From the IMG/VR virus record IMGVR_UViG_641736216_000007: a stretch of 64,000 nucleotides of DNA; one strand, written 5' to 3'. Of this stretch, positions 8,531 to 42,476 are shown piece by piece (within the stretch, counting starts at the first letter, position 1; every line of letters begins with the position of its first letter). The translations under genes and the position numbers were made by a program. A model generated the notes under the pieces. The model searched no databases. It saw only the letters and a list, made by a program, of their open reading frames with translations, and was not told the DNA's origin. The DNA comes from a virus. Its lineage: Duplodnaviria > Heunggongvirae > Uroviricota > Caudoviricetes.

Positions 8531-8818
8531 ATTAGGAGCTGTTAAATGTCAATAATCTACCTTTTTAAGGGCAGGCTTGAAATACTCTCCAAGTCGTATT
8601 GACCAGATTCAGTTTTTAAACTACATTATTGAGGTCATAACACCTATAAATGCTTCTCCAGTTTATGGGTACAAACAGTGTAATATGATATTAATCCTTA
8701 ATAATTTTATCAAGGATTGCAATTTGTTAATCATAGATATTTAAAACTAATACAAAAATGTAATGACCACAGATATGAGTTAAAGGCTCTTACTTAACAG
8801 AAATAGGGGGCAAGTTCC
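8531..8818 (+). repeat. Copy A of a ~290-bp repeated element, possibly a structured RNA leader
   Basis: About 88-90% identical to the reverse complement of 36133..36428. Ends at the AGGGGG SD and ATG of 8821..9090. Contains internal hairpins (e.g. AATCCTT-loop-AAGGATT). Confidence 0.55.
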
Positions 8819-8820
8819 TT

Positions 8821-9090
8821 ATGGAAGAAGAAGATAGAATTAAGAAAAGAAAAGATATTAAGGATTCAATAATTGGATTTGTAGTTAAAGTATTCATTAT
8901 GGGAATAGGCTTTATGTATATGAATGACCATATGGAAGCAGGCATATTGAATTTTTCTCTTCCATCTGGGAAAGAACTTTTTTCAATTAATGCTTTTCTT
9001 ATATTAAAATTTTTATTTAATTTAACATTAATTATTGAAGGTTTTACAATAATTGTTTCTATGATGAATTATTATATTGAAAATTTGTAA
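8821..9090 (+). CDS. Small membrane protein (89 aa)
   Basis: Two hydrophobic helices. Immediately preceded by repeat element copy A. Confidence 0.4.
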   Translation: MEEEDRIKKRKDIKDSIIGFVVKVFIMGIGFMYMNDHMEAGILNFSLPSGKELFSINAFLILKFLFNLTLIIEGFTIIVSMMNYYIENL

Positions 9091-21063: not shown

Positions 21064-22602
21064 TTATATCATACTAATTTCTCTCTTATCTTTTTTTAAA
21101 GGTTCTGTAATTAATCCTAATTCTAATAATAACTTTGAATAAGATCCATATTTCTTAACTAAATATTTTATATGAACACCGCTGTCTTTAATATTTTGAA
21201 TAGTTGGGATTTTACCCAAAGATTGCGTCATTTCTAAAATTGCTCTCTTACTTTCTTCCAACTCTATATCTGTATATCTATTTTTTAAAGGCTCTGTAAT
21301 TAATCCTAATTCTAATAATAACTTTGAATAAGATCCATATATATTAATCAAGGAATTTATATGAACTCCATTATCTTTAAGGTTTTGAATAGTTGGGATT
21401 TTACCTAAAGATTGTGTCATTTCTAAAATTATTTTTTTACTTTCTTTTAGTTCTGTATTTGTATACTTACTTCGTTTTGGTAATTTAAGTATTGCTTTTA
21501 TTTCTCTCCAACTACCAAATTTCCTAAAAAATGTAGCAGTTTTTATTCCATATTCCTTAAGTTCACGTATAATTGGGGTTTTATCAAGTATCTGGTAAAC
21601 TTCCATTATTTCTTTCATAGTTTTATCTTTAAATTTTTTATCTTTTTCATCTTTAATAACTTTAGCTTTCTCTACAATAGCTTTCAAGTTAAGAACATCT
21701 ATCATGTTTTCATAACTTCCATAATAAGAAAATAAAATTTTAACTGGAATCTTATAAAAAACAAGACGAGCCATACTTGGTACTTTAATTTTATTTTTTG
21801 TTAATTTTATTATTTCATTATTAAATACTTTTATATCATATTCTTCTATTTTTAATTTTTTATATGCTTCTTTAAGGCTTCCATAAGTCTTTTTTAGTAG
21901 ATTAACATCTATTCCTCTTTTTTTCATAAGGAGCTCAGATGGTACCCTCTTGTATTTATCTTCATTTTTAATGTCTAATATTTCTTTTTTTATTTTTTCT
22001 ATCTTCTCTTCATCAAACTTAGAGACAATTGAATCTAAATTCAATTCTTTTTTTATTTTTTCCCAACTACCCATTACTCTCATTAACTTATTTATTTTTA
22101 TTCCATTTTCCAATAGTTGCTGGTAAGTTGGAATACATTTCTTGTTATTTGTCAAATCTAATATTTTTTCTATTATTCCCTCTATCTCTTTTATATTTGA
22201 TACTTTTTCCAAAAGAATTGCATTTTTATCCTTATTTTTTTCAAGGAAAGGATTTTCTATTACTATATCTGTTTTTAACTTATTCTTTACAGTACTCCAT
22301 TTACCATATTTTTTTATTAAAGGTTTTATATTTATATTATTTTCTTTAAGTTCTTCTCTATTAGGTATTTTACCTAATCTATCTCTTAATTCTTCAACTT
22401 CTTTTAATATGTCTTCTGCATTATTTGTTTTATCTATAAAGCCAAGATTTTCTAAAACTTTATTCCAACTTCCATAAATCTGAAATAATTGTTTTACATC
22501 AGAATTATTTAAATCACTGAAGCTTGGCACATAACCATTTTCACTTATAAAATCATTTATTATATTTTTTGTATATTCTACATATCCACTTGGTACAAAC
22601 AT
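21064..22602 (-). CDS. Homing-endonuclease-associated-repeat (HNH_repeat-like) protein (512 aa)
   Basis: About 8 repeats of the (Y/F)GSW(n)..L..LGL type (YGSWNKVLENLGF, MGSWEKIKKELNL, FGSWREIKAILKL, YGSYSKLLLELGLITEP). Contains a ~190-bp tandem DNA duplication at 21093-21472. Confidence 0.55.
   Translation of the reverse strand: MFVPSGYVEYTKNIINDFISENGYVPSFSDLNNSDVKQLFQIYGSWNKVLENLGFIDKTNNAEDILKEVEELRDRLGKIPNREELKENNINIKPLIKKYGKWSTVKNKLKTDIVIENPFLEKNKDKNAILLEKVSNIKEIEGIIEKILDLTNNKKCIPTYQQLLENGIKINKLMRVMGSWEKIKKELNLDSIVSKFDEEKIEKIKKEILDIKNEDKYKRVPSELLMKKRGIDVNLLKKTYGSLKEAYKKLKIEEYDIKVFNNEIIKLTKNKIKVPSMARLVFYKIPVKILFSYYGSYENMIDVLNLKAIVEKAKVIKDEKDKKFKDKTMKEIMEVYQILDKTPIIRELKEYGIKTATFFRKFGSWREIKAILKLPKRSKYTNTELKESKKIILEMTQSLGKIPTIQNLKDNGVHINSLINIYGSYSKLLLELGLITEPLKNRYTDIELEESKRAILEMTQSLGKIPTIQNIKDSGVHIKYLVKKYGSYSKLLLELGLITEPLKKDKREISMI
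21093..21472. repeat. Two tandem ~190-bp copies inside 21064..22602
   Basis: Unit 21093-21282 is about 90% identical to 21283-21472. It encodes the duplicated block ...SKRAILEMTQSLGKIPTIQN(L/I)KD(N/S)GVHI...YGSYSKLLLELGLITEPLK. Confidence 0.7.
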
Positions 22603-33477: not shown

Positions 33478-34621
33478 CTTATTGGCCTTTTTCTATTTTT
33501 TTACTTAATAAATTTAAAACGTTTTCTAATCCCCCATACATATCAATGTTCATCCTTCCAAATTATTCTACATTTCTACTTTAACCTATAATTTTAATTG
33601 TTTTCACAGTATCCATTTTCAAACTCTAAATAGGATCTCTACCTCAATTCCATTATCCCAATTAAATATACTATAAATTCCTTATTATTTATAAATATTC
33701 ATATCCTATTTAAATTTTATATTGTTTATATAAAATTTAGTCATTATTAAAGTATAAAAACATCTTCCCTTTTATTCCTAACTTATATAAGGCTCCTACA
33801 GTCTTTTTTACAATATTTAGATAAGTAACATCCAAAGAACATTTCTAATAGCCTCTAAACTCATTCTAAGAATATATTTAAACTACTATAAATACTATTT
33901 AATTACTTACACTATATTTCTTTTTATAATTATTAAACATAAAACATATTTATATCTTTAATTATTATAGTTTTAATAATTTATTTTAATTAGATTTTTT
34001 TAATGAAAAATAAGAATAAGTATTTATTTTTAAAATATAAATTTAAAATTTACGATTTCCTAATATTACATATTATAAACATACAATAAATATCTACATA
34101 ATATTATAAATAAAACAATAAGAAAAAAGAGATGAATTTGGGGAGGGAGTTGTCACTATATATAGAAATCTCAACTAAGCTTGCTAAACAAAAGTTAAAT
34201 ATGCATAACTATAAGAGATAGCCTTAGCAATATAGCTAAATTTAATATTTGGGCATTTTAAATCCACTTTTTTATAAAGAATATTTATAGTAGCACTATG
34301 GACAATCTCTGCTCTTTGCTAAATTAATCATCTTTACACTTTATATATTACTGTTATAAATACTTAATGTCAAGCTTTCGTTGTTTATAAAAAACGCATT
34401 TTATATTTTTCAGAATATTCACAACCATTCAGAACAATAACCTATATTAATATACTAAAAAATAGTTTTTGTCAAGTTTATTTTAAAAAAAACCTAAAAA
34501 ACAAATGTACTCAAAAGTACTATAAATAAAAAGAACTATCTAAATTAATAGATAGCTCTTATTGTAAATTTCTTTTAATAAACAATAATTTAAAATAAAA
34601 CTTTGTATTAATAAAACCTAC

Positions 34622-35471: not shown

Positions 35472-36095
35472 CTAAGAAATAAATTCTGATGCATACTTGT
35501 TTTGCTTTAATGCTTCAATACATATTTCCTTAGTTTGTTTTTTTACATATCTAAGTGCTAAACCATTCTGTTTAACTGCTTCTAAACAAATCTCTTCTGT
35601 TTGAGTATGAACGAACTCTAAAGCTAACCCATTTTGTCTTACTGCTTCTATACAAGTCCTCTTTATTTGGCCTCCTGTATGTTTAAGAGCTAATCCATTT
35701 TGTTTTACTGCTTCTATACAAATATTTGTTACTTTCTTTTTTACATATACAATTAAATTTCCATCTCTTCTTACTGCTTCTAAGCAAATTCTATCTGTTT
35801 GGATAGGAGCAAACTGGAATGAGTCTTCAAATTCCTGTATTGCTTTTAAAGTTATATTTTCTACTTGTTCTTTTGATAATTTATCTTTTAATAAACCAAA
35901 AGGTATATGTCTAAGATTTAACCCTTTATCCATAACTGCTTCTAAGCAAAGTTCTTCTATCTCCCACTCTGATAATTTATCTTTTAAATCTTTCCAATTT
36001 ACATATTTTATAGAAGAGCTATCATTTATAATTGCTTCTCTACAAACTTCATACGATTGTTCTTCTATCTCTTTTAAATAACTACCTGTTTCCAT
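35472..36095 (-). CDS. DUF4116-type repeat protein. Start probably at the ATG at 36095; the track ORF extends to a GTG at 36116.
   Basis: Repeats such as CIEAVKQNGLALKH, CIEAVRQNGLALEFV and CLEAVKQNGLALRYVKKQTKEICIEA. Preceded by repeat element copy B. Confidence 0.55.
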   Translation of the reverse strand: METGSYLKEIEEQSYEVCREAIINDSSSIKYVNWKDLKDKLSEWEIEELCLEAVMDKGLNLRHIPFGLLKDKLSKEQVENITLKAIQEFEDSFQFAPIQTDRICLEAVRRDGNLIVYVKKKVTNICIEAVKQNGLALKHTGGQIKRTCIEAVRQNGLALEFVHTQTEEICLEAVKQNGLALRYVKKQTKEICIEALKQNKYASEFIS

Positions 36096-36132
36096 AAAAA
36101 ATGCAAAAGGGGACACGCTACTTCAGTAGTGT

Positions 36133-36428
36133 GAGGAATTTACCCCTCTTTCTGTTAGGCAAGAGTCTTTAACTCATATCTGTAACCATCACCTTTTTGT
36201 ATTAGTTTTAAATATCTATGATTAACAAATTGCAATCCTTGATAAAATTATTAAGGATTAATATCATATTACACTGTTTGTACCCATAAACTGGAGAAGC
36301 ATTTGTAGGTGTTGTAACCTTAATAATGTAGTTTAAAACTGAATCTGGTCAATACGACTTGGAGATAACTTCAAGCCTACCTCTTTAGAGGTGGGTTATT
36401 GACTTAGACATCCTCCCTTATCCTAATT
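36133..36428 (-). repeat. Copy B of the ~290-bp repeated element, inverted relative to copy A
   Basis: Reverse complement aligns with 8531..8818 at about 88-90% identity, with small indels. Ends 37 nt upstream of the start of 35472..36095. Confidence 0.55.
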
Positions 36429-40805: not shown

Positions 40806-42476
40806 CTATTTATTTTCCAAATATTTTAAAAAATTTAAATACTCATCTTTTCGAGAACTTAAGATATAATATTTAAAAATATTTTCATCATTTACCAACA
40901 TCTTATAAAAATCTTCTACCTTAATTATTTCATCACACTCAAATACTAAATACCAAATATGGTCAAGTTTAAAGGCATTTATTTCTTCATGTCCATTACT
41001 ATTTTTAAATATCTTCTTTTCTATCTTATTTTTCAACTTAAGTTTTTTCAAATTTTCTTTTTTGTTTAATTCATTTAACATATCATCTTTAATAAAACTT
41101 AAGTTGACTAAGTCTCCTTTTATTGCTTCTATACATACTTCTACTGTTTGCTCTTTTACGTATTGAAAAGCTCTTTTGTCATTTTTAGTAGCTTCAAGAC
41201 AAATCTCCTCCGTTTGTTCTTTTACATACATTAAATACCATCCTTTTTGTTTTACTGCTTCTAAACATATTTCAGGTGTCTGTTTTTTTACATCTCTAAT
41301 CGCAAATCCATCTTGTCTTACTGCTATTAAACATATCTCTTCGGTTTGATTTTCCACATATTGTAAAATCATACCATTTTTTTTAACTGCTTCTTTACAT
41401 ATATCTTCTGTTTGCTTATTTACATATTTAAGAGCTTTACCATCTTGTCTTACTGCTATTAAACATATATTATGAGTTTGTTCTTTAACATACTTTAAAG
41501 CCAAACCGTTTTGTTTTACTGCTTCTATACAGATTTCTTCTGTCTGCTCCTTTACATACTCAAGAGCTAAACCGTTTTGTTTTACTGCTTCTATACAGAT
41601 TTCTTCTGTCTGCTCCTTTACATACTCAAGAGCTAAACCGTTTTGTTTTACTGCTTCTATACAGATTTCTTCTGTCTGCTTCTTTACATACTCAAGAGCT
41701 AAACCATTTTGTTTTACTGCTTCAAGACATATTTCTTCCGTCTGTTCTTTTACATACTCAAGAGCCAAACCATTTTGTTTTACTGCTAATAAACAAAGTT
41801 CTTCTGTTTGCTCTTTTATATATATTAAAGCTAAGCCATCATTTTTTACTGTTTCTTTATAAATTTCTTCTGTTTTGTTTTTTATAAAAAGCAAAGCTGA
41901 AATATCTTGTTTAATAGCTTCTATATAAATCTTATTTTTTTGCTTTTCTGTAATAAAAAATGAATCAAATTTTGCATATTGTAAAGCTAATCCATTTTGT
42001 CTTACTGCTATTAGGCATAAATTATAGTCCTGTTTTTTTATATCTTCTAAAATATATCCATTTTGTTTGACTGCTTCAGTGAATATATTATATATCTGTT
42101 CATCTGATAAATTTAATTTATTAAAATCTACAGCTTTTAGAGAAAATGCATTTTGTCTTACTGCTTCAAGACAAATTTCTTCTATTTCTTTAGCTGACAA
42201 ATTAAGTTCATTAAACTTTATATACTCAAGTGCATACCCATGTTTTTTAACTGCCTCTATACATATCTGTTTAATATCTATATCCGATAAGGCATATTTT
42301 TTAAAATCCACATATTTCAATTCTAAACCATTGTTCTTTACAGCACTTAAATATAAATTAAATACTTGTTCTTTTGTTAAATCTAATTTATTAACATCTA
42401 CAATATTTAAACTTTCTTTTTGTTCTGTAATTCTTACTAAATAGTTTTCGAATTTTTTACTATTCATATAATTCAC
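40806..42476 (-). CDS. DUF4116-type repeat protein (556 aa). N-terminal ~36-aa repeats, then 22-aa repeats and a distinct C-terminal domain.
   Basis: About 20 repeats, including four near-identical QTEEIC(L/I)EAVKQNGLALEYVKE units. SD AGAGGGAG and ATG at 42476. Confidence 0.65.
   Translation of the reverse strand: MNYMNSKKFENYLVRITEQKESLNIVDVNKLDLTKEQVFNLYLSAVKNNGLELKYVDFKKYALSDIDIKQICIEAVKKHGYALEYIKFNELNLSAKEIEEICLEAVRQNAFSLKAVDFNKLNLSDEQIYNIFTEAVKQNGYILEDIKKQDYNLCLIAVRQNGLALQYAKFDSFFITEKQKNKIYIEAIKQDISALLFIKNKTEEIYKETVKNDGLALIYIKEQTEELCLLAVKQNGLALEYVKEQTEEICLEAVKQNGLALEYVKKQTEEICIEAVKQNGLALEYVKEQTEEICIEAVKQNGLALEYVKEQTEEICIEAVKQNGLALKYVKEQTHNICLIAVRQDGKALKYVNKQTEDICKEAVKKNGMILQYVENQTEEICLIAVRQDGFAIRDVKKQTPEICLEAVKQKGWYLMYVKEQTEEICLEATKNDKRAFQYVKEQTVEVCIEAIKGDLVNLSFIKDDMLNELNKKENLKKLKLKNKIEKKIFKNSNGHEEINAFKLDHIWYLVFECDEIIKVEDFYKMLVNDENIFKYYILSSRKDEYLNFLKYLENK
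41518..41781. repeat. Four tandem 66-bp repeats (22-aa unit). Copies 1-2 are identical and copy 3 differs by 1 nt.
   Basis: Unit ACTGCTTCTATACAGATTTCTTCTGTCTGCTCCTTTACATACTCAAGAGCTAAACCGTTTTGTTTT at 41518, 41584, 41650 and 41716. Confidence 0.85.

What the first reader, a model, noticed from the sequence alone, without database searches (positions are those of the whole stretch)
8531..8818. About 290-bp element present in two inverted copies 27 kb apart, each ending at a gene start: candidate novel structured RNA leader or mobile regulatory cassette
8531-8818 (+) and 36133-36428 (-) are about 88-90% identical over ~290 nt. This is far above background for intergenic DNA in this genome. The copies are separated by 27 kb. 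Both lie in the same orientation relative to a downstream gene: a small membrane protein at 8821, and a DUF4116 operon at 36095. Both end in an AGGGG(G) SD-like tract just before the ATG. The differences between copies cluster in short blocks (GGTCATAACA vs GGTTACAACA; TGTAATGACCAC vs GGTGATGGTTAC; GGGCAGG vs GAGGTAGG). The conserved core contains hairpins (AATCCTT...AAGGATT). It matches no RNA family I can recognise: it is not RNase P, SRP, tmRNA, 6S, T-box or a c-di-GMP riboswitch. It could be a new cis-regulatory RNA, or a repeat family carrying a promoter plus leader.
Basis: seen in the sequence. Interest (0 to 1): 0.7.

Follow-up and report, generated by a model that had tools for sequence, protein, structure and literature searches.

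The report
Gutted IscB transposon with guide-RNA remnant
The two repeats are small, gene-less leftovers of a known kind of jumping gene (an IscB "OMEGA" transposon of Clostridioides difficile) that still carry a damaged copy of its guide RNA, and they sit at gene starts because this transposon inserts next to the motif ATGGA/ATGAA, which is often a start codon.

Summary
The repeat is real: 8548-8820(+) and 36403-36134(-) are 90% identical and occur only twice in the window. It is not a new RNA family. Rfam assigns both copies to HEARO (RF02033), the omegaRNA of the RNA-guided nuclease IscB. Copy B scores 85.2 bits (threshold 83); copy A scores 72.6, below threshold.

The window is part of a ~300-kb extrachromosomal replicon of C. 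difficile. On that replicon the left ~180 nt and right ~95 nt of the repeat flank an iscB gene in two ~1.66-kb elements. An intact 440-aa IscB copy exists in another strain.

The window copies are therefore internal-deletion, ORF-less (PATE/MITE-like) derivatives of an IS200/IS605-family IscB element. They keep:
- the omegaRNA end, minus 31 nt and minus all sequence 3' of the Rfam model;
- the last 23 iscB codons;
- in copy B only, the other end's hairpin.

A related plasmid has both sites empty. All seven insertions of this lineage abut ATGRA, the reverse complement of TYCAT (published GstIscB TAM: TTCAT). This explains why the copies end at start codons. This is a new member of a known kind, of modest interest. 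In passing, several IscB subfamilies were found inserted in Shine-Dalgarno or start-codon regions.

The parts
8532..8547 (+). Left flank of copy A. This is the position an omegaRNA guide would occupy. It is the former 5'UTR of the 89-aa gene and carries its original SD, AGGAG (8534-8538), 9 nt before the insertion point.
   Evidence: Homology between copies starts only at 8548. The joined flanks rebuild SD-N9-ATG.
8548..8820 (+). Copy A: ORF-less mini-derivative of an IscB IS200/IS605-family element. It lacks the TAM-proximal end hairpin, so it is predicted to be immobile.
   Evidence: blastn against the full-length elements F1 and F2 on the same replicon; end alignments.
8548..8725 (+). Truncated omegaRNA (HEARO) scaffold of copy A. 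A 31-nt internal deletion lies near 8659-8667. An end-proximal imperfect hairpin lies at about 8556-8575.
   Evidence: Rfam RF02033 at 72.6 bits, E 1.3e-14, below the gathering score of 83. Full-length paralogues score 144-152 bits.
8726..8797 (+). Decayed remnant of the last 23 codons of iscB plus its stop codon (TAA, 8795-8797).
   Evidence: tblastn with intact IscB P0001: residues 418-439, 68% identity.
8805..8810 (+). AGGGGG tract that follows the iscB stop codon. A 36-nt deletion of the end hairpin has placed it 10 nt from the host ATG, so it is the only SD-like sequence in range.
   Evidence: Alignment of right ends; sequence.
8821..8825 (+). ATGGA: the target-adjacent motif (TAM, reverse complement TCCAT). 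It is also the start codon of the 89-aa membrane-protein ORF (8821-9090).
   Evidence: ATGRA follows all 7 insertions of the lineage. ATGGA is present in the element-free pESW1602 site.
36404..36419 (-). Left flank of copy B (guide position). It is the former 5'UTR of the DUF4116 gene and carries its SD, GGGAGGA (36417-36411).
   Evidence: Nearly identical to the empty-site sequence in pESW1602 for about 110 nt up to the junction, and identical over the last ~40 nt.
36096..36403 (-). Copy B: ORF-less mini-derivative with both end hairpins, so potentially still mobilizable in trans.
   Evidence: blastn and end alignments. Its first 118 nt are 100% identical to full-length copy F2.
36227..36403 (-). 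Truncated omegaRNA (HEARO) scaffold of copy B, with the same 31-nt deletion as copy A.
   Evidence: Rfam RF02033 at 85.2 bits (gathering score 83), covering model positions 1-211.
36155..36226 (-). Remnant of the last 23 codons of iscB plus its stop codon (TAA, 36157-36155).
   Evidence: tblastn with P0001: residues 418-440, 91% identity.
36114..36133 (-). TAM-proximal subterminal imperfect palindrome CACACTAC-TGAA-GTAGCGTG, 18 nt inside the element end. In TnpA terms this is the left-end hairpin.
   Evidence: Shared by B, F1, F2, pESW1602 and L014; deleted in A and C. Fold.
36091..36095 (-). ATGGA TAM, which is also the annotated start codon of the DUF4116 gene (36095-35472).
   Evidence: The PGAP start at record position 298148 maps to window 36095. 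Empty site in pESW1602.

Best explanation
**Identity (shown).** Both repeats are miniature, gene-less derivatives of an IscB-encoding IS200/IS605-family (OMEGA) insertion sequence. The sequence resides on a ~300-kb extrachromosomal replicon of C. difficile.

**Full-length element (~1.66 kb), in order:**
1. One transposon end, starting GTCAATAA, with a subterminal hairpin 8 nt inside.
2. The omegaRNA/HEARO scaffold, which begins at that same end. Its guide is read from the flanking host DNA.
3. Further 3' hairpins and an SD.
4. iscB (440 aa).
5. A second subterminal hairpin and 18 nt.
6. The target-adjacent motif ATGRA (reverse complement TYCAT) in host DNA.

**Origin of the short form (shown).** One ancestral deletion removed the 3' hairpins of the omegaRNA and iscB codons 1-417. 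Another removed 31 nt inside the omegaRNA. The resulting ~300-bp element then spread to at least three sites: A, B and a third copy, C.

**Later decay (shown).** Copies A and C each independently lost the TAM-proximal hairpin.

**Why they end at gene starts (shown and inferred).** The element inserts immediately 5' of ATGRA (shown). Among sites where an insertion does not destroy a gene, that motif is mostly a start codon (inferred). The original SD of the host gene is left on the other side of the element.

**Present consequences (inferred).**
- The copies are mainly selfish relics with no dedicated function.
- They lengthen the 5' leader of the downstream gene by 273 or 308 nt.
- In copy A the hairpin deletion placed the element's own AGGGGG tract at SD distance from the ATG. 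This probably restores translation.
- The truncated omegaRNA is unlikely to serve IscB well as a guide RNA.
For: - **Rfam HEARO hits:** B 85.2 bits, A 72.6 bits. Full-length paralogues score 144-152 bits.
- **Split arrangement:** the left ~180 nt and right ~95 nt of the repeat flank iscB in two elements on the same replicon.
- **Protein family:** the repaired ORF matches NCBIfam guided_IscB at 373 bits against a cutoff of 175, and Pfam RRXRR plus HNH.
- **Intact relative:** a 440-aa homologue at 92% identity lies in a complete element in another strain.
- **Remnant in the window:** only IscB residues 418-440 remain.
- **Single origin of the short form:** A, B and C share the same deletion junctions and the same derived substitutions.
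- **Boundaries:** all copies have a sharp common boundary at GTCAATAA with unrelated left flanks, and ATGRA follows all 7 insertions.
- **Empty sites:** both window sites are element-free in pESW1602.
- **Published TAM:** GstIscB uses TTCAT, the reverse complement of ATGAA. PATE-like ORF-less elements that 'often encode omegaRNAs' are described (Meers et al., bioRxiv 10.1101/2023.03.14.532601).
- **Requirement for terminal hairpins:** the terminal omegaRNA hairpins are bound by the PLMP domain and are needed for full activity (PMC9640706, PMC9581776).
Against: - No expression data are available, so neither the leader role nor the loss of guide-RNA function is shown.
- No tnpA (Y1 transposase) is annotated on the replicon, and the chromosome could not be searched. 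The agent that spread the short form is therefore unidentified.
- Copy A scores below the Rfam gathering threshold.
- Site B is not a clean insertion. The pESW1602 site has 32 nt between two ATGGA motifs that the window lacks.
- Start codons are over-represented among the insertion sites beyond a neutral TAM-only expectation: 4 of 7 observed against 4.8% expected, P about 2e-4. Selection or some additional targeting is needed to explain this and is not resolved.
Confidence: 0.88

Rival explanations
1. The short copies are still working stand-alone omegaRNA genes. Transcribed from the host promoter, they would give a guide (the 16 nt of flank) plus scaffold. An IscB encoded elsewhere would use this in trans to cut the empty site and restore the mini-element by homologous repair.
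For: - PATE elements that encode omegaRNAs to be used in trans are proposed in the literature.
- Copy B keeps both end hairpins, and its first 118 nt are 100% identical to a full-length copy.
- Copy A carries a substitution that restores a base pair broken by the 31-nt deletion.
- An intact IscB exists in some strains.
Against: - All sequence 3' of the Rfam model, where the terminal hairpins lie in the intact element, is deleted.
- The 31-nt deletion removes one strand of a conserved hairpin, and HEARO scores drop by 60-85 bits.
- Truncating both terminal hairpins reduces activity in the related IsrB (PMC9581776).
- Both iscB copies on the BI1 replicon are frameshifted.
- Copies A and C cannot excise, because they lack an end hairpin, so there is no empty site to repair.
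Confidence: 0.1
2. The element has been domesticated as a cis-acting 5' leader. It would supply the SD, and perhaps a structure-dependent control, for the downstream gene.
For: - In copies A and C, independent deletions (36 and ~42 nt) removed the end hairpin and brought the element's AGAAAGAGGGG/AGGGGG tract to 10 and 5 nt from the ATG.
- The host's own SD is displaced by 273 nt or more.
- Copy A is present at the same spacing in the two contigs examined; 22 further contigs share the same neighbouring genes but were not inspected for the element.
Against: - The downstream genes are unrelated: a small membrane protein, a DUF4116 protein and a hypothetical protein.
- The orthologues in pESW1602 work without the element.
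- Copy B has no SD in range of its ATG.
- No covariation is seen beyond the HEARO fold.
- Supplying an SD by accident is not regulation.
Confidence: 0.12
3. A new structured RNA family (riboswitch-like or sRNA) unrelated to known classes.
For: None beyond the conservation between the two copies.
Against: - Full-length match to Rfam HEARO.
- Physical continuity with iscB in the paralogous copies.
Confidence: 0.01

Closest known systems
HEARO RNA (Rfam RF02033), the omegaRNA of IscB (OMEGA systems)
   Same: - Same fold and conserved loops (GUCAA...UUGACCAG, AUGCUUCNCCAG).
- It starts exactly at the transposon end, with variable flank in the guide position.
- In paralogous copies it lies directly upstream of iscB.
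   Different: - In the window there is no iscB downstream.
- 31 nt of a conserved hairpin are missing, as is everything 3' of the Rfam model, the region holding the terminal hairpins in the intact element.
- Copy A falls below the gathering score.
PATE-like, ORF-less derivatives of IS200/IS605 elements (for example those related to ISGst1 and ISGst5 in Geobacillus stearothermophilus; Meers et al. 2023)
   Same: - Transposon ends with subterminal imperfect palindromes and no protein-coding gene.
- They carry omegaRNA sequence.
- Multiple copies with unrelated flanks, next to a fixed TAM.
   Different: - This lineage is confined to Clostridioides megaplasmids.
- Two of the three short copies have lost one end hairpin.
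- The omegaRNA is truncated.
- The mobilizing TnpA has not been identified.
GstIscB element of G. stearothermophilus (TAM TTCAT)
   Same: - Same TAM class: TYCAT here, TTCAT there, which reads ATGRA / ATGAA on the iscB strand.
- Same layout: HEARO at the TnpA-defined right end and the TAM beside the left end.
   Different: IscB relatives outside Clostridioides, including Bacillaceae (Anoxybacillus, Neobacillus), are only about 50% identical; GstIscB itself was not compared. No cleavage or excision data exist for the C. difficile element.
MITEs in general
   Same: Short, non-autonomous internal-deletion derivatives of an IS that spread in the same replicon.
   Different: There are no terminal inverted repeats and no target-site duplication. 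The single-strand 'peel-and-paste' family has asymmetric ends.

Membership tests
HEARO / IscB omegaRNA (RF02033) | Covariance-model score at or above the curated gathering score (83 bits) over the full model | tested here: met
   Copy B scores 85.2 bits over model positions 1-211. Copy A scores 72.6 bits, E 1.3e-14, below the threshold. Copy A is 90% identical to B and collinear with it.
HEARO / IscB omegaRNA (RF02033) | Located directly upstream of, and co-oriented with, an iscB ORF | tested here: not met
   In the window only the last 23 iscB codons remain. The feature is met in the paralogous full-length copies F1, F2 and L014.
HEARO / IscB omegaRNA (RF02033) | Complete scaffold including the 3' terminal hairpins that bind the PLMP domain | tested here: not met
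   The deletion junction lies at the end of the Rfam model (8725 / 36227). The hairpins seen in L014 (CAGTT-TCT-AACTG and a 12-bp stem) are absent. Their role is described in PMC9640706 and PMC9581776.
HEARO / IscB omegaRNA (RF02033) | The 5' boundary coincides with the transposon end, with variable guide sequence upstream | tested here: met
   All 8 copies and fragments start at GTCAATAA with unrelated upstream sequence.
IS200/IS605-family IscB element or its PATE-like derivative | Subterminal imperfect palindromes at both ends, with no terminal inverted repeats | tested here: met
   Copy B has CCCACCTC-TAAA-GAGGTAGG 8 nt inside one end and CACACTAC-TGAA-GTAGCGTG 18 nt inside the other. Copy A lacks the second hairpin, so it meets this for one end only.
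IS200/IS605-family IscB element or its PATE-like derivative | Insertion next to a fixed 4-5-nt target-adjacent motif, without target-site duplication | tested here: met
   ATGGA (6 times) or ATGAA (once) follows all 7 insertions. The motif is present in the empty sites of pESW1602, and no duplication is seen.
IS200/IS605-family IscB element or its PATE-like derivative | A Y1 (HUH) TnpA transposase available in cis or in trans | not testable with these tools
   No tnpA is annotated among the CDS listed for positions 1-300,000 of the BI1 record (289 features in the whole 300,869-bp record). The C. difficile chromosome was not available. iscB is rarely linked to tnpA (about 1.5%).
IS200/IS605-family IscB element or its PATE-like derivative | Presence/absence polymorphism at orthologous sites (evidence of mobility) | tested here: met
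   Both window sites are empty in pESW1602. Conversely, pESW1602 has an element where BI1 has none.
IscB protein (NCBIfam NF040563) | Equivalog HMM score above the cutoff, with RRXRR/PLMP, RuvC and HNH regions | tested here: met
   The repaired F1 ORF scores 373 bits against a cutoff of 175 and matches Pfam RRXRR plus HNH. This applies to the paralogous full-length copies, not to the window.
Riboswitch or cis-regulatory leader | Consistent association with one functional class of downstream gene, and conservation with that gene across species | tested here: not met
   The downstream genes are unrelated. The orthologous genes in pESW1602 lack the element.

The most novel reading that the evidence does not exclude
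IscB-type insertion sequences may be adapted to land in the translation-initiation region of co-oriented host genes. Their TAMs, read on the iscB strand, are start-codon-like or SD-like:
- ATGRA in this lineage.
- ATGA in two viral-contig subfamilies.
- GTGA, the 3' half of GGAGGTGA, in a Geobacillus/Neobacillus-like subfamily.

The guide of an IscB omegaRNA lies outside the element on its 5' side. An insertion in an expressed 5'UTR therefore gets its guide, omegaRNA and iscB transcribed from the host promoter. Under this reading, the C. difficile mini-elements are fossils of that habit. Their secondary deletions re-create an SD-to-ATG spacing for the host gene.

Support:
- An SD-like 5-mer occurs in the guide position in 30% of 47 IscB loci, against 8.5% of control windows.
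- In the GTGA subfamily, 9 of 9 joined flanks rebuild an SD followed by a start codon and an ORF.

Not excluded: TAM specificity plus purging of insertions inside genes would give the same pattern without any adaptation.
Probability: 0.35. Interest if true: 0.55.

Novelty: new member of a known kind. Interest (0 to 1): 0.33.

Why it matters
- **For this finding:** it removes a false lead. The element is not a new riboswitch-like RNA. It should be annotated as a truncated HEARO/omegaRNA inside a decayed IscB mini-transposon.
- **For C. difficile biology:** the ~300-kb extrachromosomal replicons carry an OMEGA (IscB) element family. It includes intact, frameshifted and gutted members, and these rewire the 5' ends of several genes.
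- **For OMEGA biology:** the lineage offers a natural series (intact, internally deleted, end-deleted) with a clear TAM (ATGRA).
- **Beyond this lineage:** the side observation that several IscB subfamilies sit between or inside the SD and start codon of host genes suggests how 5'-guided omegaRNAs obtain a promoter. If it holds generally, this would interest people who study transposon-encoded RNA-guided nucleases.

Tried and rejected
All four combinations occur among A, B, C, F1 and F2. The second block lies in the decaying iscB C-terminal codons.
- **Promoter and terminator scans around both copies:** promoter-like sites were not clearly above shuffled expectation (9 against 7.6±3.1; 10 against 4.3±2.3), and no terminator-like site was called.
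- **Fold of the end-hairpin region:** not more stable than shuffles, z about -0.9. It is interpreted as a DNA hairpin for TnpA, not an RNA structure.
- **Exact-pattern scans for more copies:** species-representative genomes gave 0 hits in two scans. Viral contigs gave 0. Metagenomes gave 1 weak, unrelated hit, L011. Phage records gave no match.
- **'Next co-oriented ORF after iscB' proxy on 45 loci:** not discriminating. 41 of 45 were positive and there was no valid control, so it was dropped in favour of subfamily boundary alignments.
- **Two papers not held:** the primary OMEGA paper was tried under a PMC id recalled from memory (PMC8929163, possibly wrong), and the original HEARO paper under PMC4140389, the id given in a review's reference list. 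Statements about them rest on secondary sources.
- **Literature on C. difficile with IscB or DUF4116:** nothing relevant to this element.

Full report
**1. Observation**

The two stretches were read and aligned. Homology starts abruptly at GTCAATAA, at 8548 on the + strand and at 36403 on the - strand. It runs about 270 nt at 90.1% identity (273 columns). A 26-nt core occurs exactly twice in the window, against none in 100 shuffles.

Copy A ends at 8820, directly before ATGGAA, the start of an 89-aa ORF (8821-9090). Copy B carries an extra 38 nt (36133-36096) containing the hairpin CACACTAC-TGAA-GTAGCGTG. It then meets ATGGAA at 36095, the annotated start of a DUF4116 gene.

**2. Known RNA family**

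A gathering-threshold Rfam scan of the whole window gave one hit: HEARO (RF02033) at 36227-36403(-), 85.2 bits against a threshold of 83, covering the full model. A permissive scan gave the same family for copy A at 8548-8725(+), 72.6 bits, E 1.3e-14.

HEARO is the RNA found upstream of HNH-endonuclease ORFs. It is now known as the omegaRNA that guides the transposon-encoded nuclease IscB (Meers et al., bioRxiv 10.1101/2023.03.14.532601; PMC9755519; PMC13565253). In both copies, position 1 of the model coincides with the first homologous base.

**3. Where the window comes from**

- A window protein, and the element itself, match C. difficile.
- The window is 99.9% identical to NC_017177.1, a 300,869-bp circular 'plasmid unnamed' of C. 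difficile BI1.
- Clostridioides sp. pESW1602 (306 kb) is a related replicon at about 80% identity.
- Positions 1-300,000 of the BI1 record were fetched and searched locally.

**4. The element is a gutted IscB transposon**

On the BI1 replicon, the left ~180 nt and the right ~95 nt of the repeat lie 1.3 kb apart in two ~1.66-kb elements:
- F1, record 152143-150484.
- F2, record 185825-184159.

In each, the two parts flank genes that PGAP names 'RNA-guided endonuclease IscB'. A third short copy, C (173137-173383), and a 65-nt fragment also exist.

Translating F1 and F2 gives an IscB interrupted by two 1-nt deletions near ...IETV|KFDTQLI|NLNPSIEG.... The repaired 441-aa sequence scores 373 bits on NCBIfam guided_IscB (cutoff 175). 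It also matches Pfam RRXRR plus HNH.

An intact 440-aa homologue (P0001, 92% identical) lies on a 295-kb C. difficile contig inside a complete element (L014). Its junctions are ...GAATATGAAA|GTCAATAA and ...GCCTTTTTT|ATGAATATC.

In the window, only IscB residues 418-440 survive: 36226-36158 at 91% identity and 8726-8791 at 68%.

**5. Anatomy of the short form**

Alignments of the ends show that A, B and C share three things:
- The same junction between the end of the Rfam HEARO model and the last 23 iscB codons.
- The same 31-nt deletion inside the omegaRNA, between two CAGTTTRT repeats.
- Derived substitutions around the junction.

They therefore descend from one deleted ancestor that then spread to at least three sites.

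The 31-nt deletion removes one strand of a conserved HEARO hairpin. Scores fall from 144-152 bits (F1, F2, L014) to 85, 73 and 59 bits (B, A, C). The large deletion also removes the hairpins that lie between the Rfam model and the iscB start in L014. These include a perfect 12-bp stem.

Structural work bears on this:
- The terminal hairpins of the omegaRNA are held by the PLMP domain (PMC9640706).
- Truncating both reduces activity in the related IsrB (PMC9581776).
- The first hairpin is dispensable for cleavage and may serve mobility (PMC9581776).

I infer that the short copies are poor guide RNAs at best.

pESW1602 carries an independent deletion derivative: the omegaRNA fused to the last ~520 nt of iscB. 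Internal deletion is therefore recurrent in this lineage.

**6. Ends and target motif**

All copies begin at GTCAATAA, after unrelated flanks. B, F1, F2, pESW1602 and L014 end ...hairpin-18 nt-TTTTTT, followed by ATGGA (ATGAA in L014). A and C have different deletions, of 36 and ~42 nt. These remove the hairpin but keep ATGGA.

The geometry matches the asymmetric subterminal hairpins of IS200/IS605 elements, an identification that rests on established knowledge of IS608-type ends:
- An 8-bp imperfect palindrome 8 nt inside one end.
- Another 18 nt inside the other end.
- No inverted repeats and no target duplication.

Meers et al. place HEARO at the TnpA-defined right end and the TAM 5' of the left end. 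They report TTCAT as the wild-type TAM of GstIscB. ATGRA on the iscB strand is TYCAT on the other strand, so this is the same TAM class.

**7. Empty sites**

In pESW1602, the orthologous LCP / small-membrane-protein region and the orthologous DUF4116 region both lack the element.

- **Site B.** Removing the element in silico makes the window collinear with pESW1602: nearly identical for about 110 nt upstream and identical over the last ~40 nt (...TTAGGATAAGGGAGGATGTCTA), resuming at ATGGAAACAGG. The only other difference is a 32-nt stretch in pESW1602, bounded by two ATGGA motifs.
- **Site A.** It is collinear but more diverged, and ATGGA is present in the empty site.

ATGGA therefore belongs to the target, not to the element.

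**8. Why the copies end at gene starts**

The joined flanks rebuild ordinary ribosome-binding sites:
- A: AGGAG-N9-ATG.
- B: GGGAGGA-N7-ATG in pESW1602.
- C: AAGGA-N11-ATG.

The elements therefore sit between the SD and the start codon.

Four of the seven insertions abut annotated start codons (A, B, C, F1). F2 abuts what looks like the start of a frameshifted DUF4116 gene. On the replicon, 126 of 2605 ATGRA sites (4.8%) are plausible starts. Four of seven then has P about 2e-4, or 4e-3 with the most generous null.

This null ignores purging of insertions inside genes. Among TAM sites that do not interrupt a gene, start codons must be a large share, so TAM plus selection may suffice.

A further inference follows from the layout. 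The guide of an IscB omegaRNA lies outside the element on its 5' side. Only insertions downstream of a host promoter can make a guide-bearing RNA, which would favour retention in 5'UTRs.

**9. Consequences for the host genes (inferred)**

The insertion moves the host SD 273-308 nt away from the ATG. The element carries AGAAAGAGGGG just after the iscB stop codon.
- In B this tract is 48 nt from the ATG and can pair with CCCCUU around the hairpin.
- In A and C the hairpin deletions bring it to 10 and 5 nt from the ATG.

This looks like compensation that restores translation. It would at the same time immobilize the element. Promoter and terminator scans were uninformative.

**10. Wider check**

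Eighty IscB loci were fetched from viral contigs. In 47 non-redundant loci with a recognisable omegaRNA 5' end, I scored the 20 nt just upstream for SD-like motifs:

| Measure | Upstream 20 nt | Control windows | Fisher p |
|---|---|---|---|
| SD-like 5-mer | 30% | 8.5% | 1e-4 |
| SD 4-mer core | 36% | 16% | 0.0014 |

Three subfamilies allowed both boundaries to be defined:
- **Two ATGA subfamilies.** They end ...G|ATGA. In 5 of 8 sites the TAM's ATG opens an ORF of 74-401 codons. Two sites have a canonical SD 5 nt upstream.
- **A Geobacillus/Neobacillus-like subfamily.** It ends ...TTTGTG|A. In 9 of 9 sites the joined flanks read (R)G|GTGA, an SD. A start codon follows 8-13 nt later and opens an ORF of 50-299 codons. 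In the same loci's flanks, only 7.7% of GTGA sites meet this criterion, giving P about 1e-10, again without a survival filter.

No held paper links IscB TAMs to host SD or start codons. I report this as a lead, not a conclusion.

**11. Comparison and verdict**

The window copies work like, and are members of, the class of PATE/MITE-like ORF-less derivatives of IS200/IS605 elements that retain omegaRNA sequence. That class is already described.

As HEARO RNAs they are truncated members:
- Copy B passes the curated score, and copy A does not.
- Neither has an iscB gene.
- Neither has the terminal hairpins.

This is a new member of a known kind, of modest interest. The RBS-targeting pattern across IscB subfamilies is the part worth following up.

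Noticed in passing
L020-L099 (IMG/VR IscB loci) and L016; Across IscB subfamilies, the DNA in the guide position is enriched for SD-like motifs: 30% against 8.5% in control windows. Where both ends could be defined, the TAM on the iscB strand is ATGA or GTGA, and the joined flanks rebuild an SD plus start codon of a co-oriented ORF (9 of 9 in one subfamily). No held paper describes this.
   Followed up: partly
L002 1-2730 (C. difficile FAFC01000080.1): In another strain, a 2366-aa TcdB-like large clostridial toxin gene (TcdB_N, glycosyltransferase, Peptidase_C80 and pore domains) lies directly upstream of the same LCP gene that precedes copy A. So a variant of this replicon carries a toxin gene next to the site.
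   Followed up: no
BI1 record NC_017177.1 151380-151440 and 185060-185090 (L008): Both full-length iscB copies on the BI1 replicon are inactivated by two 1-nt deletions within the same ~30-nt stretch, but at different positions in the two copies. This could reflect independent hits in a hotspot or homopolymer sequencing errors in an old assembly.
   Followed up: partly
window 36404/36095 versus L013 1100-1135: At site B, pESW1602 has 32 extra nt (TGGACCAATTAGAGTATAATTTAGCAATGGTA) bounded by two ATGGA motifs. The extra stretch is in frame with the DUF4116 ORF and is preceded by a strong SD. It may be a deletion linked to the insertion, or an older difference.
   Followed up: partly
window 8640-8668 versus 36312-36284: The 31-nt deletion broke one pair of the hairpin that carries the conserved AUGCUUCUCCAG loop; copies B and C have a C·A mismatch there. 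Copy A has a C-to-U change that restores the pair (U-A). The end-proximal hairpin also differs between A and B by one double change (C-G to U-A) that keeps the pair.
   Followed up: partly
window 33970-34563 and 34291-34516: Another repeat family sits in a 1.1-kb stretch of the window that has no ORF of 40 aa or more. Window 33970-34563 is 94.7% identical to BI1 130160-130762, which lies beside a TnpB gene. Window 34291-34516 is 91.7% identical to BI1 230740-230965. No Rfam family reached its gathering score there.
   Followed up: no
window 21087-21465 and 41199-41959: There are internal tandem duplications inside two ORFs. One, at about 86% identity, lies in the 512-aa ORF 21064-22602. The other, at about 79% identity, lies in the DUF4116 ORF 40806-42476.
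   Followed up: no
L004 5001-5760 (pESW1602): This is an independent internal-deletion derivative of the same IscB element. The omegaRNA is fused to the last ~520 nt of iscB, which is annotated as a 156-aa hypothetical protein. It is inserted where BI1 has an uninterrupted ~100-nt intergenic spacer.
   Followed up: yes
BI1 record outside the window (L006, L008, L009): The replicon encodes the following:
- a type I-B CRISPR-Cas set;
- a CBASS-like pair (DncV-like cyclase plus a SAVED protein);
- T4SS and pilus genes;
- replication genes (DnaE, primase, ligase, NrdJ/NrdG);
- several dozen DUF4116 genes, often separated by long intergenic gaps.
   Followed up: no
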